This document shows positions 4,673 to 41,718 of a DNA stretch of 64,000 bases, piece after piece; within the stretch, counting starts at the first letter, position 1; every line of letters starts with the position of its first letter. The stretch covers positions 6,539-70,538 of the forward strand of contig JADHVR010000006.1 in assembly GCA_016783885.1 (NCBI GenBank), written 5' to 3'. Origin of the DNA: Bacteroidales bacterium (GTDB lineage: Bacteria; Bacteroidota; Bacteroidia; Bacteroidales; JAADJA01). A model generated the notes under the pieces. That model saw only the letters and a program-made list of their open reading frames with translations. It did not search any database and was not told the DNA's origin. A program made the position numbers and the translations under genes.

Positions 4673-4880
4673 CCTCTCTGGCGCAAGTCTTGTGTGTCCG
4701 CCTTGTGCGAAAGATGACTTGTGTCTATCATTACTCAATAAATTCAATATCAATCAACCCTTTTATCCCTGAATAACCTCTCTGGCGCAAGTCTTGTGTG
4801 TCCGCCTTGTGCGAAAGATGACTTGTGTCTATCATTACTCAATAATTTCAATATCAATCAACCCTTTTATCCCTGAATAA
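4673..4880. repeat. Tandem duplication, 2 x 104 bp (4673-4776 and 4777-4880, 1 mismatch)
   Basis: Read directly. The unit CCTCTCTGGCGCAAGTCTTGTGTGTCCGCCTTGTGCGAAAGATGACTTGTGTCTATCATTACTCAATAA(A/T)TTCAATATCAATCAACCCTTTTATCCCTGAATAA occurs twice head to tail. It contains the last ~46 nt of the transposase CDS plus 58 nt of 3' flank. Confidence 0.95.
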
Positions 4881-8845: not shown

Positions 8846-8912
8846 GGTTTAATGGTTAAATGCTTAAATGGTTAAATGGTTAAATGCGTTAATGCTTAAA
8901 TGGTTAAAATGG
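8846..8912. repeat. Short tandem repeat tract (TAAATGGT / TAAATGC units)
   Basis: GGGTTTAATGGTTAAATGCTTAAATGGTTAAATGGTTAAATGCGTTAATGCTTAAATGGTTAAAATGGTT lies immediately after the stop codon at 8845. Confidence 0.9.
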
Positions 8913-12610: not shown

Positions 12611-12691
12611 TAACCTCAACCATCCAATACCTATAATTTTTATTCACACAAAACCGAATTAAAAAATAATTGTTAACGAAAACCACACTGT

Positions 12692-12765
12692 GCCGGAATC
12701 AACCCCTTTGTTGTTTTGATTGACATGGACAGATAGAATAATTTGAAGGAAGTTGAGGAAATGTA
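12692..12765 (+). repeat. Direct repeat R1 (74 nt), partner at 19588-19661
   Basis: GCCGGAATCAACCCCTTTGTTGTTTTGATTGACATGGACAGATAGAATAATTTGAAGGAAGTTGAGGAAATGTA. The 3' 48 nt are identical to R2. The 5' part differs mostly at every third base. Confidence 0.9.
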
Positions 12766-12814
12766 ATTATTAAAAAATCCAAATACTAAATATCAAATTC
12801 CAATTTAATATTCT

Positions 12815-17103: not shown

Positions 17104-18140
17104 AAATAGATATAAACAAGATAAAGCACAATGCTAAAACTTTAAAAGAATTATTTGCTAAAAAAGGGATATCTGTTACTGCCGTGATAAAGGGAGTAAC
17201 AGGATCTCCTGAAGTTGCAAATGCAATTCTTGAGTGTGGGATCACTACGATAGCAGTTTCTCTGGTTCAGAATATAAAAAAAATGAAAGAATTCGGAGTG
17301 AAAGCAAAATTTTTGCTTACACGACTGCCTAATCTCACCGAAGTTGAAGATATTGTTAAATATGCTGATATAAGTTTAAACTCTGAGATATCAACAATTA
17401 AATTGTTATCTGAACATTCTCTTAAACAAGGTAAAAGACATAAAGTAGTTTTAATGTTAGAACTCGGTGATTTAAGAGAAGGGATATTACCTGAAGATAT
17501 TGACTCGGTTATTGAACAAATTATACCGTTAAAAGGAGTTGAATTACATGGCATTGGCGCAAATCTTGCCTGCTTTGGAGGTGTTAAACCTTCAGAGGAA
17601 AATATGATTGAGTTATCTCAAACAGCAGAACGTATACAAGAAAAATACAACATAAAGCTGCATATGATTTCAGGTGGAAATTCTGCAAATTATGAATGGT
17701 TTCTATCTACTGAAAACACAGGGAAAATTAATAACTTAAGAATTGGCGAAGCTATTTTACTTGGCAGGGAAACTCTACACAGAAACAAAATCCCGAAATT
17801 ATTCACAGATGCATTTACTCTAATATGTGAGGTTATCGAAAGTAAAATAAAACCATCTTTGCCTTATGGTGAAATATGTCAAAATGCATTTGGAGACACA
17901 CCTGAGATTGCAGATATTGGTAATATCAATAGGATTATAATTGGAATCGGGGAACAAGATGTTGATACAAAAGCTATAACTCCCAGAATAAATGCCAAAG
18001 TTATTGGAGCAAGCAGTGATCATTTAATTTTACATTCCAAAAACCATATTGAAGTAGGAAGTGAAATAGAATTTGATATTAACTATTCAGCCTTGCTCCG
18101 GTTATCGACTTCACCTTATGTGAAGAAAGTGTTTATTTAA
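17091..18140 (+). CDS. PLP-dependent alanine/ornithine racemase-family enzyme
   Basis: 349 aa. Overlaps the upstream gene by 13 nt. The N-terminus LEIDINKIKHNAKTLKELFAKKGISVTAVIKGV carries the AVxK PLP-lysine context of the alanine racemase N-terminal TIM barrel. Confidence 0.6.
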   Translation: MPTLEIDINKIKHNAKTLKELFAKKGISVTAVIKGVTGSPEVANAILECGITTIAVSLVQNIKKMKEFGVKAKFLLTRLPNLTEVEDIVKYADISLNSEISTIKLLSEHSLKQGKRHKVVLMLELGDLREGILPEDIDSVIEQIIPLKGVELHGIGANLACFGGVKPSEENMIELSQTAERIQEKYNIKLHMISGGNSANYEWFLSTENTGKINNLRIGEAILLGRETLHRNKIPKLFTDAFTLICEVIESKIKPSLPYGEICQNAFGDTPEIADIGNINRIIIGIGEQDVDTKAITPRINAKVIGASSDHLILHSKNHIEVGSEIEFDINYSALLRLSTSPYVKKVFI

Positions 18141-18152
18141 TTCTTTTAAGCT

Positions 18153-19544
18153 ATGCGACTATATCTGATCAATCCTTCCAACCCGCTCGTCAGTATCGTC
18201 AGAGTCAGGGAAAACCGCTGGAACCGTTACCGGGTGTGGAAACCGCTCAGCCTTATGGTTCTCGCGGGGCTCACTCCAGTGGAGTGGGAAGTCTCAATTG
18301 TGGACGAGAACCTCGGCGTGCCGGACTATCCGTCCATGCCTCTGCCTGACCTGGTGGGGATCACCGCTTTTACCTCACAGGCGAACCGTGCCTATGAAGT
18401 GGCCTCTCACTTCCGGCGCCTGGGCGTGCCCGTTGTCATGGGCGGCATTCACGCAACCATGTGCATAGACGAAGTCATGGAGCATGTGGACTCGGTTGTC
18501 ACGGGGGAAGGCGAAGGCATCTGGACTCAGGTGCTGGAGGACGCCCGGCACGGCTGCCTGAAACGCCGGTATGACGGAGGGCTCGCCGAGATAAGCGATA
18601 TCCCAGCTGCTCGTCATGATTTGTTGGCTACAGGATATGCCTTCGGAGCCATTCAGACCACGCGCGGCTGTCCCTTGAACTGTAGTTTCTGCAGTGTAAC
18701 AGCGTTCAACGGGGCCCACTACCGGATGCGATCCATTGGGGACGTTGTTCGGGAATTCCAGTCGATCCATGAGAAACATGTTCTGGTGGTGGATGACAAC
18801 CTCATTGGCACGCGCCCTGAACACATCGCCCGCGCTAAAGAAATGTTCCGCTCCATTGCCCAGGCGAACCTGAAAAAGAAATGGGTTGCCCAAGCCACCA
18901 TCAACTTCGCCGACGACGAAGAACTCCTGGCGTTGGCCATGAAGGCCGGATGCAGAGGCATCTTCATCGGCTTTGAATCACCCGCGCAGGAAGGGCTCCT
19001 GGAAATTGGCAAGAAATTCAACCTTCTGAAAGGCCGGGACTTCCGCGCCTCTGTACGGCGCATCCAACGGCACGGAATCCTGGTCGTGGGTTCCTTTATC
19101 ATCGGTTTGGACATAGATGAACCGGGCATCGGAAAACGAATCGCCAAGGCAGCCAGCCAGTACGGCGTGGACCATCTCAACGCGCTGTTTCTGACACCCT
19201 TGCCCGGCACGCGCCTGTGGGACCAGATGAAAGCAGAGGGCCGCATCGCCCTCGATACATTCCCGGAAGACTGGAAATACTACACGCTGACCTTCCCGGT
19301 AGCCCGGTATAAGAATCTGTCTCTGGATGGTATCAGTAACGAGATGCTCTCCTGCGACCGGACTTTCTATTCTATGCCGCGCATTCTACGCCGGGTTTGG
19401 GGCAACCTGTGGGGTCGCCGCCAGCCGCTGATCAGTCTGGTGGCCAATCTCTCATATAGGAAAAATTTTCAGCTGAGTTGTAAAGCATACGCAGCCTTCA
19501 AGCATTACTTAGGCAATAGGAACGACTGTGTAAAAAAGTTATGA
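18153..19544 (+). CDS. B12-binding-domain radical SAM protein
   Basis: 463 aa. N-terminal B12-like domain (DLVGITAFTSQ...VVMGGIHAT), CxxxCxxC cluster motif (GCPLNCSFCSV) and a DUF4070-like tail. GC content is far above its surroundings. Confidence 0.8.
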   Translation: MRLYLINPSNPLVSIVRVRENRWNRYRVWKPLSLMVLAGLTPVEWEVSIVDENLGVPDYPSMPLPDLVGITAFTSQANRAYEVASHFRRLGVPVVMGGIHATMCIDEVMEHVDSVVTGEGEGIWTQVLEDARHGCLKRRYDGGLAEISDIPAARHDLLATGYAFGAIQTTRGCPLNCSFCSVTAFNGAHYRMRSIGDVVREFQSIHEKHVLVVDDNLIGTRPEHIARAKEMFRSIAQANLKKKWVAQATINFADDEELLALAMKAGCRGIFIGFESPAQEGLLEIGKKFNLLKGRDFRASVRRIQRHGILVVGSFIIGLDIDEPGIGKRIAKAASQYGVDHLNALFLTPLPGTRLWDQMKAEGRIALDTFPEDWKYYTLTFPVARYKNLSLDGISNEMLSCDRTFYSMPRILRRVWGNLWGRRQPLISLVANLSYRKNFQLSCKAYAAFKHYLGNRNDCVKKL

Positions 19545-19587
19545 AAAAAAATGGTGCTTGGCTTCGGCGTGAAAAAAATCATATTAT

Positions 19588-19661
19588 GCCGGTATCGATC
19601 CCTTTGTCATTCTTATTGACATGGACAGATAGAATAATTTGAAGGAAGTTGAGGAAATGTA
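19588..19661 (+). repeat. Direct repeat R2 (74 nt), partner of 12692-12765
   Basis: GCCGGTATCGATCCCTTTGTCATTCTTATTGACATGGACAGATAGAATAATTTGAAGGAAGTTGAGGAAATGTA, starting 44 nt after the radical SAM stop codon. Confidence 0.9.
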
Positions 19662-20051
19662 GTTCTTATAACAAAACTTCAAAAACCAAATAACAAATTT
19701 CAAAACTTGTCTGTACGACTGAAAGGAGTCCGTATGTATGGATAAATACCAAATTTAAAAACCTAAATTACAATTGAATATTTGTCTATATAGTCATAGA
19801 TGTTTGGGAATTGTATTTTCTGATTAAGTAAAAATATATTATTATAATATTGATATTAATTAAACTCTTATATTTGCTGGAAGAAACCACAAAATTAATT
19901 TGAGACAAATATTTTCCGTATAACATATAAAGAGTATTATACTGACATTTACTTTTAAATAATATGTTATACCAATAAAACGAGTAATGAAACGGTGACT
20001 GCAAGAATCGTAATGCATGTTATTCAAAAAAGATGATAACATAGGATATAT

Positions 20052-23000
20052 ATGAACACTGATCTGTCATTTATTACTAACGAAGAAAACCAGAATCTTA
20101 AAGAAAGGTTTGAAGTTCTTATCAAAGACACTTCATTTTTTGATTGCCTTGTAGGATATTTCTACTCAAGTGGGTTTCACGCCATCTACCCATCTCTGGA
20201 AAGCACAGAAAAAATTAGAATCCTGATTGGCATCAGCACAAGCAGACAAACTTTCGAAATGATGGAAAAGGCAAATAAACCAACACGACAAACATTTGAT
20301 TTTTCTCACGCCGAAGCCAAGCAGGAAGTTGAAAATCTTGTTCAAAATGAAATGGAGGTTTCCGAGGACAATAGAAACGTTGAACAAGGCGTCCATAAAT
20401 TTATAGAATGGATTAGAAGCGGCAAGCTGACAATCAGGGCTTATCCGTCACAGAATATCCACGCCAAACTCTATATTATGACATTTAAGGAAGGCGACAG
20501 GGATACCGGCCGCGTTATCACAGGCTCCAGTAATTTCACACAAGCCGGGCTGGTTGACAATCTTGAATTTAACGTGGAACTAAAAAACAGAAGTGACTAT
20601 GATTTTGCGAAAAATAAATTTGAGGAATTATGGAGTAACGCTGTAGATGTCAGCGAAAAATATGCTCAGACCATTCAGGATAAGACCTGGTTGACTCAAA
20701 ATATCACGCCCTACCAGTTATACCTGAAATTTCTCTACGAATATTTCAAGGATGAACTCAGCCAAACAGATGAAGTGTTTGTTAAGTATTTGCCGCAGGA
20801 GTTTAAAAAACTTGAATATCAGGAGCAGGCAGTCTTAAACGCCAAAAAGATACTTTTGGAATATGGCGGCGTTTTTATCTCCGACGTTGTGGGGCTGGGA
20901 AAAACATACATTTCAGCAATGCTGGCGGGTCAACTGGACGGCAGAACGCTTATTATCGCCCCGCCGGTGCTTTTGGAAAAATCAAATCCCGGTTCATGGC
21001 CCAATGTTTTTTCAGACTTCAGAGTGCCGGCAGATTTTGAATCTATCGGTAAACTGGACTACCTGTTGGACATAGGAACAGACAAATACACAAATATTAT
21101 TATAGATGAGGCACACCGTTTTCGAACCGAAACAACAATTTCCTATGAGAAACTGGCGGAAATATGCCGCGGGAAAAGAGTTATCCTGGTAACTGCAACT
21201 CCTTATAACAACACCCCCAAAGATATTCTTAGTCTTCTTAAACTGTTTCAGAAAGCCAAAAAAAGCACCATTCACAATCAACCAGACCTTGAAGCATTCT
21301 TTAACAGGCTGGATAAAAAACTTAAAAACCTGGACAGAAAGAAAGACCGCACCGAATACATAAATAATGTAAGAGCAAATTCACGGGAAATACGCGATAA
21401 AGTTTTGAAGTATTTGATGGTGCGCCGCACCCGAACAGAAATTGAAAAATATTTCAGCAAAGATATAAAAGAACAAGGCCTTAAATTTCCGGATGTTAAA
21501 AAACCGGAGCCATTATTTTATGAACTCAATGACGAAGAAGACGTTATTTTTAATAAGACCATTGACATTATTGCCAATCAATTCAGATACGCACGCTACA
21601 TGCCAATGCTTTATTATGAAGGCAAGATTGATCAGCTTGAAGAGCAATCCCAGCGGAACATGGGTCGGTTTATGAAAATACTGCTGGTCAAACGACTGGA
21701 AAGCAGTTTCTTTGCATTTAGAAATTCAGTGGACAGATTCCTGCATTCCTATGAAATGTTCATAAATGAATTTGATAACGGTAATGTCTATGTAAGTAAA
21801 AAGCATACAAACAAGATATTTGAATTGCTGGAAAACGATGATGACGAAGCAGTCCAGCGATTAATAGATGAAGGCAAGGCGGAGAAATATGAGAGCAAGG
21901 ATTTCAGAGAAGAACTCAAAAAAGACCTAGAGCATGACCATGCCATCTTGATGGAAGTCAAAAAGCTTTGGCAGAACATTAACCGGGACCCGAAGCTCAT
22001 AAAATTCATAAACGAACTGTCAAAAAATAAAGTCTTAAAAAACAATCATCTCATTATTTTTACTGAATCAAAGGAAACAGCCAACTATCTGTCTAACAAT
22101 ATAAATAAAGAATATCCTGACAAGGTTCTTTTATTTACTGGTGGTTCTGGCGAGTCTGTGCGCGATAAAGTGCTTGAAAACTTTGATGCCAGAGCCCGTT
22201 ACCCCAAAGAAGATTATCGAATACTTGTCTCCACCGAAGTCCTGTCGGAAGGCGTGAACCTGCACCGCGCCAATGTGGTGATTAATTATGACATACCCTG
22301 GAACCCGACCCGAATGATGCAGAGAGTAGGACGTATTAACCGGGTTGACACACCTTTTGACGTCATCCATACTTTTAATTTCTTCCCTACAACACAATCC
22401 AATGACCAGATTAAGCTGAAAGAAGCGGCCGAAGGCAAAATCAATGCCTTTTTAACCCTGCTTGGCGGCGATGCGGAACTTTTAACCGAAGGCGAACCCA
22501 TCGGCTCTCACGAACTGTTTGACCGCTTGACTTCAAAGAAAACACTAGAAGGTGAGGATGAGGCAGTGGATAGCGAACTGAAATATCTGCAGGTTATCCG
22601 GGATATCCGCGAAAAGAATGCCGATCTTTTTGAAAAAATAAAACACCTGCCCAAAAAAGCCCGCACAGGCAAAGTAACTCAGGCTTCCAGCCTGAGACTT
22701 AATCGCTCCAGCCAGGATATCTCTGATATAATAATGTATTTTGATCCGGATAAATCAATCGAAATAAAACAGAGAAATTTGCCTCATTGGCAGCAGAAAG
22801 GAACCGCTTATTTCGTTACCTTTAGGCTATATGATTCAATTCCTCAAGAAGTTTCTGAAAGCATCAAAAGAGAGAGAAAACATTGGCTGGAAGCCAACAA
22901 AATCTCCAACCCTTCTGAATTCAAAAAACTGAATCAACACAAAAAGATTGAATACTACCGCCTTTTCTCCAAACGATATGATGATTTATTGGACAATGGT

Positions 23001-23924
23001 CATGGCTCATGCATATTAATGAACAAAAAGTGCAAACAAATTGTTGAGAAGGCATTAAACTATTTCGATGGTGAACGATACTATTTGGATAAATTTGTTG
23101 TCATGCCCAACCATGTCCATGTTATTGTAATTCCGAGAGGTGAATGGACTTTATCAAAGATTACCCATTCCTGGAAATCCTATACAGCCAATGAGTTGAA
23201 TAAAATAACAAATCAAAGAGGATCCATTTGGATGTCCGAATCTTTTGACCATATAATACGAAGCCTTGAGCAGTTAGAAAGAATAAGGCAATATATCGTA
23301 ACTCAAGCTTCCAGCTTGAGCGGTCAACCTCACAGGCAAGATGCCTGTGATAAAAACAACAGTCACAGGCAGGATGCCTGTGTTACTTTTTTTCGCCGTG
23401 GGAAACTGCAAAAATTTTTTATGGCGCAGGTTAAGCAAGCAGCCGAAGAACTGGATTTTATGACAGCGGCAGAGCTGCTTGAAAGCCGACCTGACGAAAA
23501 AAGGAAGCAGCTCCCCGGTGAGATTTATGACCTCCTGGATAAAAACAAGGAAGCTTTTATTATCGCTACAACTGAAGAAATGGCTGAACCCCAAAAAAGA
23601 AGAGGACGCGACAGCGCCGCTAATATCCTGAGAATTCTAAAAGCAACCATGAAAAACACTCAGAAATTTACCGAAGACCAGGAACTTTACCTTAAAAAAG
23701 TATTGACCCAGCTTGAGGAAGGCGGGCTGCCCAAACAAACGGCAAAAAATACATTAAAAGCCCTGGATGCGCTTAAAGATGAACTGGTAAATCCTTTCAA
23801 GGTGCTGGCAGTTCTCCAGACCCATATACCCGAAAAGTTGCTGGAAAGCCATTATGCCGAGCAGAACCCGGCAGTATTCGGAAAGCGTGAAGTAATACTT
23901 TCATTATATTTAGCAGGTGAATAA
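20052..23924 (+). CDS. PLD-nuclease / SNF2-family helicase fusion (defence-associated), interrupted in-frame by a RayT-type element
   Basis: 1290-aa ORF. HKD motif NIHAKLYIM...GSSNFT. SNF2 motifs GLGKTY (I), IIIDEAHRFR (II), VTATPYNN (III), SEGVNLHRANVVINYDIPWNPTRMMQRVGRINR (V-VI). Residues ~875-1112 are a foreign Y1-transposase module. Confidence 0.85.
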   Translation: MNTDLSFITNEENQNLKERFEVLIKDTSFFDCLVGYFYSSGFHAIYPSLESTEKIRILIGISTSRQTFEMMEKANKPTRQTFDFSHAEAKQEVENLVQNEMEVSEDNRNVEQGVHKFIEWIRSGKLTIRAYPSQNIHAKLYIMTFKEGDRDTGRVITGSSNFTQAGLVDNLEFNVELKNRSDYDFAKNKFEELWSNAVDVSEKYAQTIQDKTWLTQNITPYQLYLKFLYEYFKDELSQTDEVFVKYLPQEFKKLEYQEQAVLNAKKILLEYGGVFISDVVGLGKTYISAMLAGQLDGRTLIIAPPVLLEKSNPGSWPNVFSDFRVPADFESIGKLDYLLDIGTDKYTNIIIDEAHRFRTETTISYEKLAEICRGKRVILVTATPYNNTPKDILSLLKLFQKAKKSTIHNQPDLEAFFNRLDKKLKNLDRKKDRTEYINNVRANSREIRDKVLKYLMVRRTRTEIEKYFSKDIKEQGLKFPDVKKPEPLFYELNDEEDVIFNKTIDIIANQFRYARYMPMLYYEGKIDQLEEQSQRNMGRFMKILLVKRLESSFFAFRNSVDRFLHSYEMFINEFDNGNVYVSKKHTNKIFELLENDDDEAVQRLIDEGKAEKYESKDFREELKKDLEHDHAILMEVKKLWQNINRDPKLIKFINELSKNKVLKNNHLIIFTESKETANYLSNNINKEYPDKVLLFTGGSGESVRDKVLENFDARARYPKEDYRILVSTEVLSEGVNLHRANVVINYDIPWNPTRMMQRVGRINRVDTPFDVIHTFNFFPTTQSNDQIKLKEAAEGKINAFLTLLGGDAELLTEGEPIGSHELFDRLTSKKTLEGEDEAVDSELKYLQVIRDIREKNADLFEKIKHLPKKARTGKVTQASSLRLNRSSQDISDIIMYFDPDKSIEIKQRNLPHWQQKGTAYFVTFRLYDSIPQEVSESIKRERKHWLEANKISNPSEFKKLNQHKKIEYYRLFSKRYDDLLDNGHGSCILMNKKCKQIVEKALNYFDGERYYLDKFVVMPNHVHVIVIPRGEWTLSKITHSWKSYTANELNKITNQRGSIWMSESFDHIIRSLEQLERIRQYIVTQASSLSGQPHRQDACDKNNSHRQDACVTFFRRGKLQKFFMAQVKQAAEELDFMTAAELLESRPDEKRKQLPGEIYDLLDKNKEAFIIATTEEMAEPQKRRGRDSAANILRILKATMKNTQKFTEDQELYLKKVLTQLEEGGLPKQTAKNTLKALDALKDELVNPFKVLAVLQTHIPEKLLESHYAEQNPAVFGKREVILSLYLAGE
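22674..23387 (+). mobile_element. REPtron / IS200-IS605-like element (RayT-type Y1 transposase gene bounded by hairpins), nested in-frame in the helicase ORF
   Basis: Left hairpin A is CTCAGGCTTCCAGCCTGAG (22678-22696). Internal ATG at 22734 gives MYFDPDKSIEIKQRNLPHWQQKGTAYFVTFRL...MPNHVHVIVIP (HUH). The right end has hairpin A' CTCAAGCTTCCAGCTTGAG (23302-23320) and two B hairpins, CACAGGCAAGATGCCTGTG (23331-23349) and CACAGGCAGGATGCCTGTG (23364-23382). The span as delimited is 714 nt (238 codons). Confidence 0.75.
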
Positions 23925-23927
23925 AAT

Positions 23928-25277
23928 ATGAAGAATAAAGAATCTCAAACAGTTGAATATAAACAGACCTGGCGAAATGACTGCCTTAAAGCCGTTTCAG
24001 CGTTTGCAAACAGTGATGGCGGCTGTTTATATATAGGGCTGGACGATCAGGGAAATCCCACCAGCTTAAAAAATGAAAAAAAACTGCTTGAAGACATACC
24101 AAATACAATCAGAAACAAACTTGGAATCATTCCCCCTGTTGAACTGAACAAGAAAAACAAGAAAGATATAATCAAGGGCACAGTTGCACCATGTTCTGTT
24201 CCTATTTCTTATAATGGCAAGTATTATATCAGAAGCGGGAGCACTGTGCAGGAATTACAGGGAAAAGAGCTGGCTGATTTTCTTATGAAAAAATCAGGCG
24301 CCACATGGGATGACATTGTTGAAGAAAGAGCAGGTCTTAATGAGATAGACAATGATTCCATAGAAAACTTTAAAAAGTTTGCCGTTGACAGAATTCCATC
24401 AATTATAAAAGAAACCAACAATACTACACTCCTGCAAAAATTAAACCTGATTGATGACAAAGAGTTAAAAAGAGCATCGGTTCTTCTTTTCGGCAACGAG
24501 CCGCAGAAATTTTACCGGCAGTCTGTAATCAGGATTGGCAAATTTCTATCAGATACAGAAATTCAAACAACCGATATTATCAAAGGGAATCTCTTTGTAC
24601 AACTAGAAAGTGCACTGGAAATCCTTCGGACAAAATATCTGGTCAGCAATATCAAATATGAAGGCATTCACCGTCGTGATATTCTTGAATATCCTTATGA
24701 AGCGTTAAGAGAAGCAATCATTAATGCGCTGATTCACCGGGATTATTCAGGGACTTCACAAATCCAGATACGGGTTTATTCTGATAAATTGATAATTATG
24801 AATGAAGGCAAGCTCCCGCCCGAAATTCCCGTAGAAAAATTGAAAACCAACCATTTATCCATTCCAAGAAACACACTCCTTGCTAAAATTTTCTATTATG
24901 CCGGATTTATTGAATCATGGGGGCATGGAACAATAAAAATTATAGAAAACTGTATAAAACAAGGACTGCCGGAACCGGATTTTATCGAAGAATACGGAGT
25001 TATGACGGTTATTTTTTATAAAGATAAATGGAATGAAAAAAATCTGAAAAAATTGGAGTTGAATGAAAGGCAAATTAAAGCGGTGATGTATGTAAAGGAA
25101 AATGGAAAAATTACGAATAATCAATACCAAAAAATATTTAGCGTATCAAAAGCTACAGCTACCAGAAATTTAACTACTTTGGTAAACAAAGGACTTTTAG
25201 TACAATATGGAGAAACAGGAAAAGGAACTTTTTATAAATTAAAGGGCTCACAAACGGCTCAAAGGAATAGTATATGA
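23928..25277 (+). CDS. Schlafen/AlbA_2-domain putative DNA-binding ATPase-like protein with C-terminal wHTH
   Basis: 449 aa. N-terminal ESQTVEYKQTW...AFANSDGGCLYIGLDDQG (AlbA_2). Central YPYEALREAIINALIHRDY (HATPase_c_4-like). C-terminal wHTH NERQIKAVMYVKENGKITNNQYQKIFSVSKATATRNLTTLVNKGLL. Gap of 3 nt to the helicase gene and a 4-nt ATGA overlap with the MTase gene. Confidence 0.75.
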   Translation: MKNKESQTVEYKQTWRNDCLKAVSAFANSDGGCLYIGLDDQGNPTSLKNEKKLLEDIPNTIRNKLGIIPPVELNKKNKKDIIKGTVAPCSVPISYNGKYYIRSGSTVQELQGKELADFLMKKSGATWDDIVEERAGLNEIDNDSIENFKKFAVDRIPSIIKETNNTTLLQKLNLIDDKELKRASVLLFGNEPQKFYRQSVIRIGKFLSDTEIQTTDIIKGNLFVQLESALEILRTKYLVSNIKYEGIHRRDILEYPYEALREAIINALIHRDYSGTSQIQIRVYSDKLIIMNEGKLPPEIPVEKLKTNHLSIPRNTLLAKIFYYAGFIESWGHGTIKIIENCIKQGLPEPDFIEEYGVMTVIFYKDKWNEKNLKKLELNERQIKAVMYVKENGKITNNQYQKIFSVSKATATRNLTTLVNKGLLVQYGETGKGTFYKLKGSQTAQRNSI

Positions 25278-28200
25278 ATAAACAACAGGCACAGCAAATT
25301 ATTAAAGAAACCTTTGAAAACCCTTTTGACAAGGGGCGTTTTACGAATTTCATTAAAAACCTTTTGAACAGTTTTAATAACGCGCCCTTTACTTACCAGG
25401 GAAATTATATCCCCGATGCGTATAAACAATACATCAGGACACTGGAACGTATCGGCAAGTTCAGCGACGGGGAAAACAGCATTGATATCCTTGTCATAAC
25501 CTTACAGAAAGAGACATCCCTTGAACGCGCCCGTACCATGCAGCGTAATTTTATCGCCTGGTACTTAAACGGCAGCCGGGGCGGTGAAATGAAAGATGCC
25601 GCGCTGGCGGCATTTGTCTCTCCCTGTGAAGAAGACTGGCGGTTTTCGCTGGTCAAGATGGATTACAAATTTGAAAAAACCAAAACCGGCCTGTCTGCGT
25701 GCGGAGACGCACAGGCAGGCAGAATAAAGGTGAAGGAAGAATTCACTCCTGCACGGCGTTGGTCGTTTTTGGTGGGCGCCAACGAAAAAAGCCACACCGC
25801 CCAAAGCCGTCTGGTAAATATCCTCGCAAATGATGAACAAGCCCCGACCCAAAAAGAAATCGAAAAAGCCTTTGATATTGAAACTGTCACCAAAGAGTTT
25901 TTCCTCAAATACCGCGAGCTTTTCCTGCACACCAAAGAAGAATTGGACAGGGTTGTTACAAAAGATCCGAGAATCGCGGCGGATTTTGAGGCAAAGGGTG
26001 TTGATACTGTAAACTTTGCTAAGAAGCTATTGGGACAGATTGTGTTTCTCTACTTCCTGCAGAAAAAGGGATGGTTTGGTGTGGAGCGTGATGCGGACTG
26101 GGGTGACGGGTCCAAGCATTTCCTACGTGAACTGTTTGAGAAAAAACACGGAGATTACAAAAATTTCTTCAATGATATTTTAGAGCCGCTTTTTTATGAA
26201 GCCCTACGAACTGGACAGGAGAGAGAACATGAAGACTATTATTACAGCCGGTTCAACTGTAAAATTCCCTTCTTAAACGGCGGACTTTTTGATCCTATCG
26301 GCAATTACGATTGGGTGCATACCGATATAATTATTCCCGACAAGCTCTTTTCCAATAATATAAAAACCAAAGAAGGCGATACCGGAACAGGTATACTGGA
26401 TGTGTTTGACCGCTACAATTTTACCGTTAAAGAGGATGAACCGCTGGAAAAGGAAGTGGCAATCGACCCGGAACTGTTGGGTAAAGCCTACGAGAAATTC
26501 AATGCCATACGCCCGGATAATTATGATGAATTTAGAAAGGCATTAAAGAGCGGCAAAAAAGGCGAGGAAAACAAATTCAATAAAAAATTCGGCGTCTATT
26601 ACACTCCCCGTGAGATTGTGCACTACATGTGCCAGCAGAGCTTGATTAATTACCTGGCAACAAGTGTAACTCAGGCTTCCAGCCTGAATGACCACAGACA
26701 AGATGCCTGTGTTACTATAACCAAGGAAGATATCGAAGCTCTGATACATACCGGCGAGCATGTCAGCGAAAACGAAGCTCGAGTTATACAAGAAGGCAAA
26801 GAGACCAGAACCTATTTCCACAAACTGCCCGAAAGCATCCGCAACAACGCTGCACTGATTGACCAAAAACTGGCAGAAATCACAGTCTGTGACCCGGCAG
26901 TGGGTTCCGGCGCCTTTCCTGTGGGCATGATGAGCGAGATTGTGAGGGCGCGAAATGTGCTGACGACGTTTATTCACAGGCAGGATGCCTGTGCTACTTA
27001 TGAATTCAAACGCCGCTGTATTGAACATTCCCTTTACGGTGTTGACATTGACCCGGGTGCAGTGGAAATTGCAAAACTGCGGCTCTGGCTCTCGCTGATG
27101 GTGGATGAGGATGACATTAAAAATATAAAGCCACTGCCGAATCTGGATTATAAAATCGTCTGTGGAAATTCCCTGCTGGGCGTAGAGAAAGACCTTTTTA
27201 ATGCGCATCTGTTTTCAGAACTGGAAAAAATGAAGCCGCTGTTTTTCAACGAAACCAACCCCACCAAAAAACAGGAATATAAAAAGCAGATTGATAAACT
27301 GATAAGTGAAATAACCAGTGGACATACTGAGTTTGATTTTGAGGTTTATTTTTCAGAGGTGTTTTTGAGCGGAGCGAAATCCGCCTCTGGCGGGCACAAC
27401 AAAGGCGGGTTTGATATGGTGATTGCCAATCCACCGTACATAAAAGAGTATGTTAACAGGAGTGCATTTGATGGACTTAGGAACAGTCCATATTATATGG
27501 GCAAAATGGACATTTGGTATATTTTTGCTTGTAAAGGTATAGACTTGTTGAAGAACAAAGGGGTTCTTTGCTTTATTGCTCAAAACAATTGGGTTACAAG
27601 TTATGGTGCGAAAAAAATGAGAAACAAAGTATTATCTGATAGCAACATATTGCAATTATTGGATTTTGGTGACTATAAAATTTTTGAAAATACAGGTATT
27701 CAGACAATGATTATGCTTTTTCAAAAAATCCAGAATTCGTCCAGCTATAAATTAGATTTTAGAAGATTACATTTTTCTAACAAAGTTAATTTTAGTGATG
27801 TGTTGGTTCTGTTATCAAAAAGTGAAAATGAACATGTTGAATACTTAATACCTGATATTGATAGTGACAACTTGATTGATAAACCAATTGTATTTAGTAA
27901 TAGAGTATTCGAAAAAATACTTAATAAGCTAAAAGAGAAAAATAATTTTATTTTAGATGGGTATCAAGAAGTTGCGCAAGGTATTGTATATCCACAAGAC
28001 TTCCTAAATAAAAAAAATAAAGAGATATTAGGAAATGATTTCAACGTTGGACAAGGTATTTTTGTCTTGAGCAATGAGGAGAAAAACTCAATCCACTTTA
28101 CAGAAAACGAACTCAAATTAATTAAACCGGAATATACCACTAAAGAATCATTCAAGTATAATGCTAATCCCAGAAATAAATATTGGGTGATTTATACCGA

Positions 28201-28753
28201 TTCCAGTTTTAAGAATTTGAATAAAATAAATAAATACCCAAACATCAAAAAACATCTTGACAGATTCCGAAAAGTAATCACTTCTGATAATAAACCGTAT
28301 GGTTTGCATAGGGCAAGAGACGAAAAATTTTTCACAGGTGAAAAAATCATCTCAGTTAGGAAGTGTGCAGAACCAACATTCACATATACAGATTTTGACT
28401 GTTACGTTTCAGCAACTTTTTACGTAATCAAGTCCCAAAGAATTGATAATAAATTTTTGACAGCCCTTTTAAATTCAAAGCTTATTGCTTTTTGGCTAAG
28501 GCATAAGGGAAAAATGCAAGGAAATAATTACCAAATTGATAAAGAACCGCTTCTAAGTATACCAATTGTCAAACCGGGAAAAAACAAACAGGTACCAATA
28601 ATAAACTTGGTTGAAAAAATTCTTGCGAAAAAAGAGTTTAATAAAGATACCGACGATGAGGAGCGAGAAATCGACCAGCTTGTCTACAAGCTCTACAACC
28701 TCACCCCGGAAGAAATCAAAATCGTTGAAGGAGAAAATGAAAACGCTGATTGA
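25274..28753 (+). CDS. Eco57I-family (type IIG-like) N6-adenine DNA methyltransferase with TaqI_C-like target-recognition domain
   Basis: 1159 aa. AdoMet motif VCDPAVGSGAFP, catalytic motif VIANPPYIKEY, C-terminal NNYQIDKEPLLSIPI region. Contains three short in-frame palindromic insertions. Confidence 0.85.
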   Translation: MNKQQAQQIIKETFENPFDKGRFTNFIKNLLNSFNNAPFTYQGNYIPDAYKQYIRTLERIGKFSDGENSIDILVITLQKETSLERARTMQRNFIAWYLNGSRGGEMKDAALAAFVSPCEEDWRFSLVKMDYKFEKTKTGLSACGDAQAGRIKVKEEFTPARRWSFLVGANEKSHTAQSRLVNILANDEQAPTQKEIEKAFDIETVTKEFFLKYRELFLHTKEELDRVVTKDPRIAADFEAKGVDTVNFAKKLLGQIVFLYFLQKKGWFGVERDADWGDGSKHFLRELFEKKHGDYKNFFNDILEPLFYEALRTGQEREHEDYYYSRFNCKIPFLNGGLFDPIGNYDWVHTDIIIPDKLFSNNIKTKEGDTGTGILDVFDRYNFTVKEDEPLEKEVAIDPELLGKAYEKFNAIRPDNYDEFRKALKSGKKGEENKFNKKFGVYYTPREIVHYMCQQSLINYLATSVTQASSLNDHRQDACVTITKEDIEALIHTGEHVSENEARVIQEGKETRTYFHKLPESIRNNAALIDQKLAEITVCDPAVGSGAFPVGMMSEIVRARNVLTTFIHRQDACATYEFKRRCIEHSLYGVDIDPGAVEIAKLRLWLSLMVDEDDIKNIKPLPNLDYKIVCGNSLLGVEKDLFNAHLFSELEKMKPLFFNETNPTKKQEYKKQIDKLISEITSGHTEFDFEVYFSEVFLSGAKSASGGHNKGGFDMVIANPPYIKEYVNRSAFDGLRNSPYYMGKMDIWYIFACKGIDLLKNKGVLCFIAQNNWVTSYGAKKMRNKVLSDSNILQLLDFGDYKIFENTGIQTMIMLFQKIQNSSSYKLDFRRLHFSNKVNFSDVLVLLSKSENEHVEYLIPDIDSDNLIDKPIVFSNRVFEKILNKLKEKNNFILDGYQEVAQGIVYPQDFLNKKNKEILGNDFNVGQGIFVLSNEEKNSIHFTENELKLIKPEYTTKESFKYNANPRNKYWVIYTDSSFKNLNKINKYPNIKKHLDRFRKVITSDNKPYGLHRARDEKFFTGEKIISVRKCAEPTFTYTDFDCYVSATFYVIKSQRIDNKFLTALLNSKLIAFWLRHKGKMQGNNYQIDKEPLLSIPIVKPGKNKQVPIINLVEKILAKKEFNKDTDDEEREIDQLVYKLYNLTPEEIKIVEGENENAD
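25690..25719. repeat. Imperfect palindrome inside the MTase ORF (encodes ..LSACGDAQAG..)
   Basis: CCTGTCTGCGTGCGGAGACGCACAGGCAGG. About 12 pairs are possible, counting G-T wobbles. Shares CACAGGCAGG with the B hairpins. Confidence 0.55.
26666..26716. repeat. Miniature A+B hairpin element (51 nt, 17 codons) in-frame in the MTase ORF
   Basis: GTAACTCAGGCTTCCAGCCTGAATGACCACAGACAAGATGCCTGTGTTACT reproduces the left hairpin A and right hairpin B of the 22674-23387 element without the transposase. Translates as VTQASSLNDHRQDACVT. Confidence 0.8.
26975..26993. repeat. Solo B hairpin in-frame in the MTase ORF
   Basis: CACAGGCAGGATGCCTGTG, identical to 23364-23382. Translates as HRQDAC. Confidence 0.8.
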
Positions 28754-41662: not shown

Positions 41663-41718
41663 GAAACCTGAAACCTGAAACCTGAAACTTGAAACTTGAA
41701 ACCTGAAACTTGAAACCA
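41663..41718 (+). repeat. Eight tandem heptamers GAAAC(C/T)T ending 5 nt before the TonB-receptor start codon
   Basis: GAAACCT x3, GAAACTT x2, GAAACCT, GAAACTT, GAAACC. Preceded by hairpin CCCCGAAAGTTTTCGGGG and two further GAAACTT-like units. Confidence 0.9.

What the first reader, a model, noticed from the sequence alone, without database searches (positions are those of the whole stretch)
25690..26993. Transposase-less palindromic mini-elements inserted in-frame in the methyltransferase ORF
Seen directly, there are three insertions. (i) 26666-26716 is a 51-nt (17-codon) unit made of hairpin A plus hairpin B with the same GTAACT...GTTACT borders as the full RayT element. It is effectively a miniature non-autonomous derivative. 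(ii) 26975-26993 is a solo B hairpin identical to 23364-23382. (iii) 25690-25719 is a related imperfect palindrome containing CACAGGCAGG.

All three preserve the reading frame and add short peptides (VTQASSLNDHRQDACVT, HRQDAC, LSACGDAQAG) between conserved blocks. None touches the DPAVGSGAFP or NPPY motifs. Two adjacent defence genes are therefore the preferred landing sites of one REP family in this window, with frame preservation each time. That argues for selection on retained host function, or for target and length constraints of the element.
Basis: partly seen in the sequence, partly recalled or inferred. Interest (0 to 1): 0.65.

Follow-up and report, generated by a model that had tools for sequence, protein, structure and literature searches.

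The report
In-frame hairpin transposon relics in methyltransferase
A bacterial DNA-methyltransferase defence gene carries three short hairpin-forming pieces of mobile DNA that are read through as extra loop peptides; this is a known kind of event, but here the hairpins and their transposase travel inside the same defence gene pair in several bacterial phyla.

Summary
26666-26716 is a transposase-less A+B hairpin unit. 26975-26998 is a B hairpin with its CTAC tag. 25690-25719 is a 30-nt palindrome. All three lie in frame in an intact 1159-aa type IIG-like methyltransferase, and close homologues lack them.

The interpretation needs four corrections.
1. Only the 30-mer is a clean insertion. The other two replace variable loops.
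2. The solo B is the truncated right half of an A-B unit that is still complete in a relative (L249).
3. The 30-mer belongs to a separate and far more abundant hairpin family.
4. These are probably not fresh landings in this genome. No A or B copy lies elsewhere in the 64 kb, and their read depth is single-copy.

The same A/B hairpins sit at the same loops of the same helicase-methyltransferase pair in Thermodesulfobacteriota, Calditrichaceae, Brocadia and other Bacteroidota. An intact RayT-like Y1 transposase is in frame in one of the two genes in at least six further loci from other organisms or samples.

Best reading: an IS200/REP-type single-strand DNA element and its miniature derivatives live in permissive loops of a horizontally mobile defence locus, kept open by selection on the host genes. 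In-frame intragenic REPs are already described (Di Nocera 2013; Rickettsia RPEs), so this is a new member of a known kind with unusual features.

The parts
25274..28753 (+). Host gene: type IIG-like restriction/modification methyltransferase, 1159 aa, intact ORF
   Evidence: Pfam Eco57I 3.4e-38, N6_Mtase and TaqI_C. PADLOC REase_MTase_IIG, 1185.6 bits. Motif I and NPPY are intact.
25690..25719 (+). Site 1: C-type hairpin CCTGTCTGCGTGCGGAGACGCACAGGCAGG. Net +30 nt, read as (G)LSACGDAQAG. It belongs to a separate and very abundant palindrome family.
   Evidence: Clean 10-codon gap in 28 of 29 homologues. ssDNA fold -12.2 kcal/mol. At least 120 metagenome loci carry the motif. About 13-100 times the depth of the neighbouring bins, with loose ends on its two sides at 25686-25690 and 25720-25721. 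The identical 30-mer sits in the same loop of the L101 methyltransferase, read in another frame.
26666..26716 (+). Site 2: non-autonomous A-B unit, 51 nt. It consists of the GTAACT tag, hairpin A (7-bp stem, TCC loop), the spacer ATGAC, hairpin B (one A/C mismatch) and the TTACT tag. It is read as VTQASSLNDHRQDACVT.
   Evidence: It follows the same plan as 27 further A-spacer-B-NTAC units in other loci. Contigs in X1 and X5 carry a native 31-nt loop in place of 26653-26722.
26975..26998 (+). Site 3: hairpin B plus the CTAC tag, read as HRQDACAT. It is the truncated right half of an A-B unit.
   Evidence: 19/19 identical to 23364-23382. The 24 nt are identical to the right end of the partial-A + B unit at the same site in L249. 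Full A-B units occupy this site in L101 and Brocadia.
22674..23390 (+). Parent-type element: about 715 nt, IS200-like, in frame inside the helicase gene. Order of parts: GTAACT + A, the RayT-like ORF, GTAACT + A, B, B + TTACT.
   Evidence: In run X9 a joint 22673->23391 has a native 36-nt loop instead of the element. L003 and L101 helicases have an empty site.
22737..23297 (+). RayT-like Y1 (HUH) transposase coding part. It has its own ATG, the HUH motif HVHVIV, and a candidate catalytic Tyr in RQYI. It has no stop codon of its own and reads on into the helicase C-terminus.
   Evidence: Pfam Y1_Tnp 30.9 bits against a cut-off of 23. NCBIfam REP_Tyr_transpos is the best hit, at 56.9 bits, below its cut-off of 80. 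It is 93-94% identical to the in-frame copies in L036 and L249.
20052..23924 (+). Host gene 2: PLD (HKD) + SNF2 helicase, 1290 aa including the embedded element
   Evidence: Pfam PLDc_2, SNF2-rel_dom and Helicase_C. PADLOC 'HKD+Snf2'.

Best explanation
The three inserts are non-autonomous remnants of single-strand-DNA hairpin transposons. They sit in permissive surface loops of a functional type IIG-like methyltransferase.

Two of them (26666-26716 and 26975-26998) derive from the IS200/REP-type element whose intact Y1 (HUH) transposase lies in frame in the neighbouring helicase gene. The 51-nt unit is the element's left-end hairpin A joined to its right-end hairpin B and NTAC tag, which makes it a miniature derivative. 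The 'solo B' is such a unit that later lost its A half. The third insert (25690-25719) comes from a different, very abundant hairpin family.

Proposed mechanism (inferred, not shown). The Y1 transposase recognises the folded hairpins and their GTAAC/NTAC tags on single-stranded DNA. It cuts and pastes units into nearby single-stranded DNA at the replication fork, which would explain why every coding-region copy has the same orientation as the genes. Only insertions that fell in tolerant loops, in an open frame, and without disabling the enzyme survived. Afterwards the loops were trimmed and the units partly deleted.

The whole helicase-methyltransferase locus, passengers included, moves horizontally between phyla. 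That explains why this genome shows A/B copies only inside these two genes.
For: Shown by tool results:
- Exact identity of the methyltransferase copies to the ends of the RayT-type element, with 0 matches expected by chance.
- Hairpins fold as ssDNA.
- In 26 A-B units from many genomes, 96.4% of cells pair and three stem positions covary AU<->GC. None of 500 shuffles reached these values.
- Empty sites exist in close homologues and in co-occurring strains.
- The A motif occurs in at least 119 genome stretches across many phyla. 85 of 144 copies are spanned by no stop-free reading frame of 150 aa or more, meaning most are outside genes. The usual layout is A-spacer-B-NTAC, or inverted doublets in Chthoniobacterales.
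- The same gene pair carries A/B units at the same loops in L002, L036, L062, L071, L085, L101, L249, L059 and Brocadia. All coding-region copies are in sense orientation.
- RayT is in frame in the helicase in the window, L001, L036, L071 and L249. It is in frame in the methyltransferase at site 2 in L059 and Brocadia.
- RayT is 93-94% identical between the window and L036/L249, while the flanking helicase is 87.5-89% identical. This suggests purifying selection on the transposase.
- Hairpin variants are uniform within a locus. The GG-type loci carry RayTs 68-94% identical to the window's, and the one AA-type locus with a RayT (Brocadia) carries a 62% one. GG-type loci are not each other's closest methyltransferases.
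- Occupancy differs among loci that share a 93% identical RayT. This points to local gain and loss.
- A, B and RayT are at single-copy depth in the source metagenomes, and no copies lie elsewhere in the 64 kb.
- The inserts map to low-pLDDT inter-element segments 131-159, 469-479 and 570-573 of the model.
- Unrelated palindromes occupy the same loops in other homologues, L247 and L248, which shows the loops are permissive.
Against: - No transposition, excision or cleavage has been observed. No precise-excision joint (26665->26717) was seen, though Logan contigs drop rare variants.
- Sites 2 and 3, and 'site 0' in relatives, are replacements, sometimes with no change in length. An example is VTQASSLRNE against VTKDPRIAAD. 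Simple cut-and-paste insertion does not predict this.
- No conserved target sequence could be defined. Left flanks are only A-rich.
- Hairpins A+B are 83-96% identical between loci whose flanking third codon positions are only 46-63% identical, while the spacers are unrelated. This fits either turnover or direct selection on the hairpins, and I cannot tell which.
- The genome outside the 64-kb window was not available, so 'only in this locus' rests on the window and on read depth.
- The structural model is weak (mean pLDDT 66.7, pTM 0.45).
Confidence: 0.68

Rival explanations
1. The hairpins and the embedded RayT are a domesticated, functional module of this defence system. They could be DNA or RNA structures, or RayT recombination sites, that regulate or vary the helicase and methyltransferase. 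Examples would be programmed in-frame excision and insertion giving isoforms, or on/off switching.
For: - Hairpin nucleotides are conserved far above neighbouring synonymous sites (83-96% against 46-63%), with compensatory changes, while the spacers drift.
- The same loops are occupied in several phyla.
- RayT is kept intact and in frame in six further loci and at two different positions, and is at least as conserved as its host.
- Orientation is always sense.
Against: - Most homologues lack A/B. Only 5 of the best 120 carry the peptides, and L003 at 79% identity has none.
- RayT sits in different genes in different loci.
- The same loops accept unrelated palindromes.
- Elsewhere the A-B family is mostly intergenic and multi-copy, like ordinary REPs.
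- Units decay into a solo B, a solo A, or degenerate forms such as VIQASSL and PASSLR.
- No within-population excision variants were seen.
Confidence: 0.14
2. All occupied sites are ancient relics inherited vertically with the gene from one ancestral invasion. There has been no recent mobility. The similarity of hairpins across loci reflects gene conversion or recombination between alleles of this frequently exchanged locus.
For: - Orthologous positions are shared by methyltransferases 56-80% identical.
- The site-2 spacers of L085 and Brocadia are alike, AAGAGAAAGAG against GAGAGAAAGAT.
- The site-3 right end is identical in the window and L249.
- RayT, A and B are single-copy in the community.
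Against: - Occupancy is mosaic and does not follow methyltransferase similarity. L003, the closest homologue, is empty, while L071 at 62% aa identity is occupied.
- Hairpin type goes with the RayT lineage rather than with methyltransferase similarity.
- Loci with 93% identical RayT differ in which sites are filled.
- The identical C-type 30-mer lies in the same loop in the window and L101 but is read in different frames.
- A free-standing 90% identical RayT copy (L123) sits outside any helicase gene yet keeps 17 nt of helicase flank. This implies movement.
Confidence: 0.15
3. The segments are ordinary variable loop sequence, or assembly or annotation artefacts, and their palindromy is coincidental.
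For: Sites 2 and 3 are hypervariable loops in the family, so length and sequence differences alone would not be unusual.
Against: - 0 matches expected by chance, against 22-nt and 19-nt exact repeats of the RayT element ends.
- Hundreds of copies of the motifs in unrelated genomes.
- Independent assemblies agree.
- The peptides occur only where the DNA palindromes occur.
Confidence: 0.01

Closest known systems
Intragenic GTAG/CGTC-tagged REPs (Di Nocera et al. 2013, PMC3733652)
   Same: Short tagged palindromes linked to RayT-type Y1 transposases. Some are inserted in frame inside genes for known proteins, singly or as grouped units encoding about 10-30 aa. That paper notes enrichment in DNA-metabolism genes (helicases, UvrA, polymerases) and the highest intragenic count in a verrucomicrobium.
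   Different: The tag here is GTAAC(T)...NTAC, not GTAG or CGTC. The unit is a composite of two different hairpins (A and B) in fixed order. The host is a defence gene pair. The same 22-nt motif is shared across many phyla. The transposase gene itself is translationally embedded in the host protein.
Rickettsia palindromic elements (RPEs; Ogata et al. 2000, as summarised in PMC10969869 and PMC3733652)
   Same: Palindromic mobile repeats inserted in frame in ORFs that remain functional. They add peptide segments thought to lie at tolerated surface positions and are absent from orthologues.
   Different: RPE-1 is about 150 bp and no transposase has been identified for it. RPEs are confined to Rickettsia. 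The units here are 19-51 nt, have a cognate Y1 transposase next door, and follow one horizontally mobile locus across phyla.
IS200/IS605-family insertion sequences and their miniature derivatives (PATEs)
   Same: A Y1 HUH transposase (Pfam Y1_Tnp above threshold). The element is about 715 nt with subterminal hairpins in the same orientation at both ends and no terminal inverted repeats. The non-autonomous derivative is made of left end plus right end. Orientation is strand-specific, as expected for ssDNA transposition. The family properties are from my own knowledge.
   Different: The protein is closer to the REP-associated (RayT) model than to the IS200 model in NCBIfam, and below both cut-offs. 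No target tetranucleotide could be defined. The element has no stop codon and is read through as part of the host protein.
REPIN-RAYT systems (Bertels and Rainey 2011; Bertels et al. 2017)
   Same: A single-copy RayT-like gene with associated hairpin repeats. In Chthoniobacterales the A hairpins form inverted doublets about 100 nt apart, like REPINs.
   Different: REPIN-RAYT systems are described as extragenic, multi-copy, lineage-specific and vertically inherited. Here, in this genome, the copies are few, intragenic, in direct orientation and carried on a horizontally transferred locus.

Membership tests
REP / RayT (REPtron, REPIN-RAYT) | Short (20-40 nt) hairpin-forming repeats with conserved stem structure | tested here: met
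   ssDNA folds. 96.4% of cells paired, 3 covarying pairs, 0/500 shuffles reaching this.
REP / RayT (REPtron, REPIN-RAYT) | Conserved GTAG (or CGTC) tetranucleotide at one end of the hairpin | tested here: not met
   The tag is GTAAC(T) 5' of hairpin A and NTAC(T) 3' of hairpin B, invariant in 26 units. It is similar in position but is not GTAG.
REP / RayT (REPtron, REPIN-RAYT) | Associated Y1 transposase belonging to the RayT clade | tested here: inconclusive
   NCBIfam REP_Tyr_transpos is the best hit, but at 56.9 bits it is below the 80-bit cut-off. Many homologues are named RayT by JGI.
REP / RayT (REPtron, REPIN-RAYT) | RayT gene flanked by REPs in inverted orientation | tested here: not met
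   The A hairpins at 22674 and 23298 and both B hairpins are all on the + strand, so they are in direct orientation.
REP / RayT (REPtron, REPIN-RAYT) | Many extragenic copies dispersed in the host genome | tested here: not met
   Seven hairpin copies, all inside two ORFs within 4.3 kb, and none elsewhere in 64 kb. Depth is single-copy. The feature is met in other genomes, such as Yes70-11, Lentisphaeria LJ_bin-1925 and Kuenenia. The whole genome of this organism was not available.
IS200/IS605 family (IS200 type) and miniature derivatives | Y1_Tnp (PF01797) transposase with HUH motif and catalytic Tyr | tested here: met
   PF01797 at 30.9 bits against a cut-off of 23. HVHVIV and a Tyr 60 residues downstream can be read directly from the sequence. 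NCBIfam transpos_IS200 scores only 23 bits against a cut-off of 55.
IS200/IS605 family (IS200 type) and miniature derivatives | Element of about 0.7 kb with subterminal hairpins at both ends on the same strand and no terminal inverted repeats | tested here: met
   22674-23390 is about 715 nt, with hairpin A at the left and A+B+B at the right, all on the + strand. The element borders are fixed by the empty-site joint 22673->23391.
IS200/IS605 family (IS200 type) and miniature derivatives | Insertion 3' of a specific tetra- or pentanucleotide, without target duplication | tested here: inconclusive
   Left flanks are A-rich (AAA, ATA, AGT, ACA before GTAAC) with no fixed motif. Sites are replacements rather than clean insertions.
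IS200/IS605 family (IS200 type) and miniature derivatives | Non-autonomous derivative keeping only left and right ends | tested here: met
   26666-26716 consists of GTAACT + A (identical to the left end) and B + TTACT (the right end).
RPE-like in-frame palindromic insertions in proteins | Palindromic repeat inside an intact ORF, in frame, and absent from orthologues | tested here: met
RPE-like in-frame palindromic insertions in proteins | Insert located at a surface or loop position compatible with the fold | tested here: inconclusive
   All three inserts fall in low-pLDDT segments between helices or strands (131-159, 469-479, 570-573), but the model is weak (pLDDT 66.7, pTM 0.45). Supporting evidence: other palindromes occupy the same loops in homologues.
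RPE-like in-frame palindromic insertions in proteins | Host protein remains active with the insert | not testable with these tools
   Only indirect evidence: intact ORFs and catalytic motifs, and conservation of the arrangement in several lineages.

The most novel reading that the evidence does not exclude
The RayT-like transposase and its hairpins are a long-term, cross-phylum resident of one defence gene pair, a 'gene within a gene'. The transposase is made only as an internal domain of the helicase or methyltransferase, or from an internal start. It maintains or regenerates its hairpins in defined protein loops, and it may give the defence system RayT-dependent in-frame sequence variation or regulation. 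That would be a new mode of transposon persistence (translational embedding without an intein or intron) and possibly a new layer of control of restriction-modification systems.
Probability: 0.12. Interest if true: 0.8.

Novelty: new member of a known kind. Interest (0 to 1): 0.5.

Why it matters
This locus shows that REP/IS200-type hairpin elements can persist inside coding sequence rather than between genes. It also shows that large defence enzymes have loops that repeatedly accept palindromic DNA from unrelated repeat families.

It offers a concrete system, with full and empty alleles in public data, for three questions:
- how Y1 transposases choose targets;
- whether embedded hairpins or an embedded transposase affect a type IIG enzyme;
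- how a transposon can spread between phyla by riding inside a defence gene.

For annotation, peptides such as VTQASSL, H(R/K)QDAC and SACG.AQAG are signatures of translated repeats. They should not be read as conserved protein motifs.

Tried and rejected
- **Rfam.** A scan of 22000-28000 at E <= 5 gave only two chance-level hits (a snoRNA and a miRNA model). No known RNA family matches.
- **Unit length modulo 3.** I tried this as a test of frame constraint. It is not interpretable, because unit borders are not insertion borders and most sites are loop replacements.
- **Active excision.** I looked for a precise joint 26665->26717 in four metagenomes and found none. The joints seen come from diverged strains with native loops. 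The runs are kept as contigs, which hide rare variants.
- **Intein or intron-like removal of the embedded RayT.** Considered and set aside. No splicing motifs were noted when reading the junctions, which are plain hairpin sequence. This was not tested formally.
- **'VTKDPRIAAD' (window aa 228-237) as a decayed A hairpin.** Rejected. This matches the family consensus V..D.KIKADFE of homologues that lack the inserts.
- **Literature search for in-frame RayT or REPs in restriction-modification genes.** No paper describing this was found. This is not proof that none exists.
- **Unverified assumption.** L011 and L008 (Brocadia) were taken as contiguous tiles of one contig. The two tiles share no overlapping sequence, which fits adjacent tiles but does not prove it. 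The reading frame and the RayT alignment run across the junction.
Full report
**1. What is in the window.**

The region holds three co-oriented genes.
- 20052-23924 encodes a PLD(HKD)+SNF2 helicase of 1290 aa.
- 23928-25277 encodes a Schlafen/AlbA_2-HATPase_c_4 protein.
- 25274-28753 encodes an Eco57I-type methyltransferase of 1159 aa. It matches the PADLOC model 'Type IIG restriction enzyme-methyltransferase' at 1185.6 bits.

The flanking genes include a C10 peptidase with a Por secretion tail, which points to a Bacteroidota host. The runs that hold the sequence are marine, estuary and cold-seep metagenomes.

**2. Checking the observation.**

Two motifs define the repeats.
- Hairpin A is GTAACT-CARGCT-TCC-AGCYTG-A. 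It occurs at 22674, 23298 and 26666.
- Hairpin B is CACAGGCA-RGA-TGCCTGTG. It occurs at 23331, 23364, 26693 (two mismatches) and 26975.

All copies are on the + strand and none lies elsewhere in the 64 kb. No match was expected in shuffled sequence.

The 51-nt unit 26666-26716 is GTAACT-A, the spacer ATGAC, and B-TTACT. Its first 22 nt equal the copy upstream of the RayT-like ORF. 26975-26993 equals 23364-23382. 25690-25719 is an imperfect 30-nt palindrome. All of them fold as single-stranded DNA.

The methyltransferase ORF is uninterrupted and the catalytic motifs are untouched. An independent assembly (L001) has the same locus, with identical nucleotides at the three insert sites. Contigs from three unrelated studies cover it.

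**3. Are they insertions?**

I aligned 29 homologues, and made codon alignments with L002 and L003.
- **Site 1** (aa 139-148, LSACGDAQAG) is a clean 10-codon gain. It is absent from every homologue except the 97%-identical L001 protein.
- **Site 2** (aa 465-481) lies in a hypervariable loop, and the repeat replaces native residues.
- **Site 3** (aa 568-575) also lies in a hypervariable loop. Its net change is +1 codon against L002 and L003.

Metagenome contigs from related strains carry native loops instead.
- The 31 nt TCTTGCCACCGAACTGGACGGAAAGGCAAAA stand in place of 26653-26722.
- A 36-nt native loop stands in place of the whole 717-nt RayT-type element, as the joint 22673->23391.

**4. The solo B is a truncated unit.**

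L249 has a methyltransferase 80% identical over its N-terminal 70%. At site 3 it has partial A, GCAAT, B and CTACT. Its last 24 nt are identical to window 26975-26998. L101 and Brocadia have full A-B units at the same site. So the window copy lost its A half.

**5. The site-1 palindrome belongs to a different family.**

The motif CCTGTCTGCGTGC-N(2-8)-GCACAGGCAG hit at least 120 metagenome stretches in many different contexts. In the source communities its bin has about 13-100 times the depth of the neighbouring bins, and loose ends with disagreeing flanks on its two sides (25686-25690 and 25720-25721) mark its borders. The bins holding RayT, A and B are at the depth of the single-copy flanks.

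It shares only CACAGGCAGG with hairpin B. The identical 30-mer lies in the same loop of the L101 methyltransferase but is read in another frame (PACLRAETHRQA), next to a second C-type hairpin. This points to recurrent, probably independent, hits on a tolerant loop.

**6. The A-B family elsewhere.**

They come from Chthoniobacterales and other Verrucomicrobia, Lentisphaeria, Brocadia and Kuenenia, KSB1, Kapaibacterium, Ignavibacteria, Saprospiraceae, Marinifilum, Nitrospira, Calditrichaceae and Thermodesulfobacteriota.

Of 144 copies, 85 are spanned by no stop-free reading frame of 150 aa or more. Several genomes have many copies. The usual plan is A, a 5-22-nt spacer, B and NTAC. Chthoniobacterales show inverted A doublets about 100 nt apart.

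In 26 aligned units 96.4% of stem cells pair, and three stem positions switch AU<->GC on both sides. So the window's 51-nt unit is a canonical member of a widespread REP-like family. No Rfam family matches it.

**7. The recurrent host.**

Eight of the loci found by the A motif alone contain this same helicase-methyltransferase pair. L002 and L249 were reached through methyltransferase homologues. Across these loci the hairpins occupy the same few positions:
- the helicase loop after KKARTAK;
- methyltransferase 'site 0' (LDKI|VTQASSLRNE|FEAKG);
- a site after FEKK (L101 only);
- site 2;
- site 3.

All coding-region copies are in the sense orientation. The one antisense B that was found (in L071) lies at the helicase-methyltransferase junction, outside coding sequence. 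L003 is an empty reference for both genes.

The RayT-like gene is itself in frame with no stop codon.
- In the helicase: the window, L001, L036 (Thermodesulfobacteriota; RayT 93% identical), L249 (94%) and L071 (Calditrichaceae; 68%).
- In the methyltransferase at site 2: L059 (Bacteroidetes; ORF 1298 aa) and Brocadia sp. WS118, taking L011 and L008 as contiguous.

Most RayT homologues in the database are free-standing proteins of 190-320 aa. The closest free-standing copy (L123, 90%) still carries 17 nt of helicase flank upstream of hairpin A.

**8. Dynamics.**

Between loci, the A+B hairpins (46 nt) are 83-96% identical. The surrounding methyltransferase codons are 68-83% identical overall and 46-63% identical at third positions. 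The A-B spacers are mostly unrelated.

Hairpin variants are uniform within a locus.
- CAGGCT with CACAGGCA (GG-type) is found in the window, L002, L036, L071, L249 and L062.
- CAAGCT with CACAAGCA (AA-type) is found in Brocadia, L101 and L085.

The GG-type loci carry RayTs 68-94% identical to the window's, and the one AA-type locus with a RayT (Brocadia) carries a 62% one. GG-type loci are not each other's closest methyltransferases. Loci that share a 93% identical RayT differ in which methyltransferase sites are filled. RayT is at least as conserved as its host helicase, 93-94% against 87.5-89%.

Together these favour an active or recently active transposase that seeds and renews copies locally, followed by decay. 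Direct selection on the hairpins cannot be excluded.

**9. Permissive loops.**

An AlphaFold2 model is of modest quality (mean pLDDT 66.7). It places all three inserts in low-confidence segments between helices or strands: 131-159, 469-479 and 570-573.

Other homologues carry unrelated palindromes in the same loops. Examples are TTCCCGCGAAGGCGGGAA in L247 site 3, GTTCCCGCGAAAGCGGGAAC in L248 site 2, and a CTCCCTCTCCC/GGGAGAGGG hairpin in L247 site 2. The loops therefore tolerate insertions from several repeat families.

**10. Comparison with what is known.**

In-frame intragenic REPs are described. Di Nocera et al. 2013 report them in several species, often in DNA-repair and helicase genes, and most numerous in the verrucomicrobium O. 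terrae. Rickettsia RPEs are the classic case.

The present elements differ in four ways: the tag (GTAAC/NTAC rather than GTAG), the composite A-B architecture, the IS200-like direct arrangement around the transposase, and the way they follow one mobile defence locus across phyla with the transposase translationally embedded. I found no paper describing this last point.

**11. Verdict.**

The inserts are in-frame, transposase-less hairpin elements kept open by selection on a working gene. However, they come from two families, one of them is a truncated unit, two are loop replacements, and they are residents of a horizontally mobile locus rather than a landing pattern in this genome.

The transposition mechanism itself is inferred from family knowledge and was not shown here.

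Noticed in passing
window 19555-19584 and 20294-20323: A 30-nt inverted repeat, 93% complementary with an 18-nt perfect core TGCTTGGCTTCGGCGTGA. It brackets the helicase promoter region and the first 90 codons. The downstream arm is conserved helicase coding sequence (FDFSHAEAKQ). It could be an invertible segment or a remnant of a rearrangement.
   Followed up: partly
window 12679-12775 and 19575-19671: A 97-nt direct repeat, 86% identical. Each copy lies just downstream of a gene end (12610 and 19544). It may be a shared terminator, regulatory element or small RNA.
   Followed up: no
window 27923-28162 (methyltransferase aa 884-963): All 33 amino-acid differences between the window methyltransferase and the 97%-identical L001 protein fall in one 80-residue stretch of the C-terminal half. 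This suggests a swap or rapid change of the target-recognition region between strains.
   Followed up: no
window 23928-25277: The Schlafen/AlbA_2-HATPase_c_4 gene between the helicase and the methyltransferase is an accessory insertion. It is absent in L002 and L003, and in metagenome contigs that give the joint 23925->25274.
   Followed up: partly
L034, L057, L058, L060, L104 (Chthoniobacterales): The same 22-nt A hairpin occurs as inverted pairs about 90-100 nt apart, with further GC-rich hairpins between them. This is a REPIN-like layout, different from the direct A-B units of low-GC genomes.
   Followed up: no
L004-L122 (genome-contig scan): A 22-nt DNA motif (GTAACWCARGCTTCCAGCYTGA) is conserved nearly exactly in many bacterial phyla. 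This is unusual for REP families, which are usually lineage-specific. It implies horizontal spread or very strong constraint from the cognate transposase.
   Followed up: partly
L123 2280-2979: A free-standing RayT copy (90% aa identity) lies between unrelated genes but keeps 17 nt of helicase coding flank (AAGCCCGCACAGCAAAA) upstream of hairpin A. It ends with the usual YIEDN..K tail plus B-ATACT. In the window and L036 an A hairpin replaces that tail.
   Followed up: partly
L085 helicase loop; L036 4579-4608 (methyltransferase site 3): Further unrelated palindromic repeats are translated in these proteins. Examples are PPLPPFSKGGMGGF in the L085 helicase, and SLRGAQATCLRAGTHRQAKQSH in L036, whose TCLRAGTHRQA core is a C-type hairpin. 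They sit in the same loops used by A/B.
   Followed up: no
L003 504-1976: In the insert-free homologous locus a reverse transcriptase gene (RVT_1, 490 aa) lies directly upstream of the helicase.
   Followed up: no
window 4673-4880, 8846-8908, 41663-41716: Tandem repeats unrelated to the finding: a 104-nt unit in two copies at 99% identity, an 8-nt GGTTAAAT-type array, and a 7-nt GAAACCT/GAAACTT array.
   Followed up: no
window 18001-19000: A GC content of 0.535 in a window that otherwise runs at 0.26-0.45. It falls in the ORF 18153-19544, which by position corresponds to the B12-binding/radical SAM gene called in L001.
   Followed up: no
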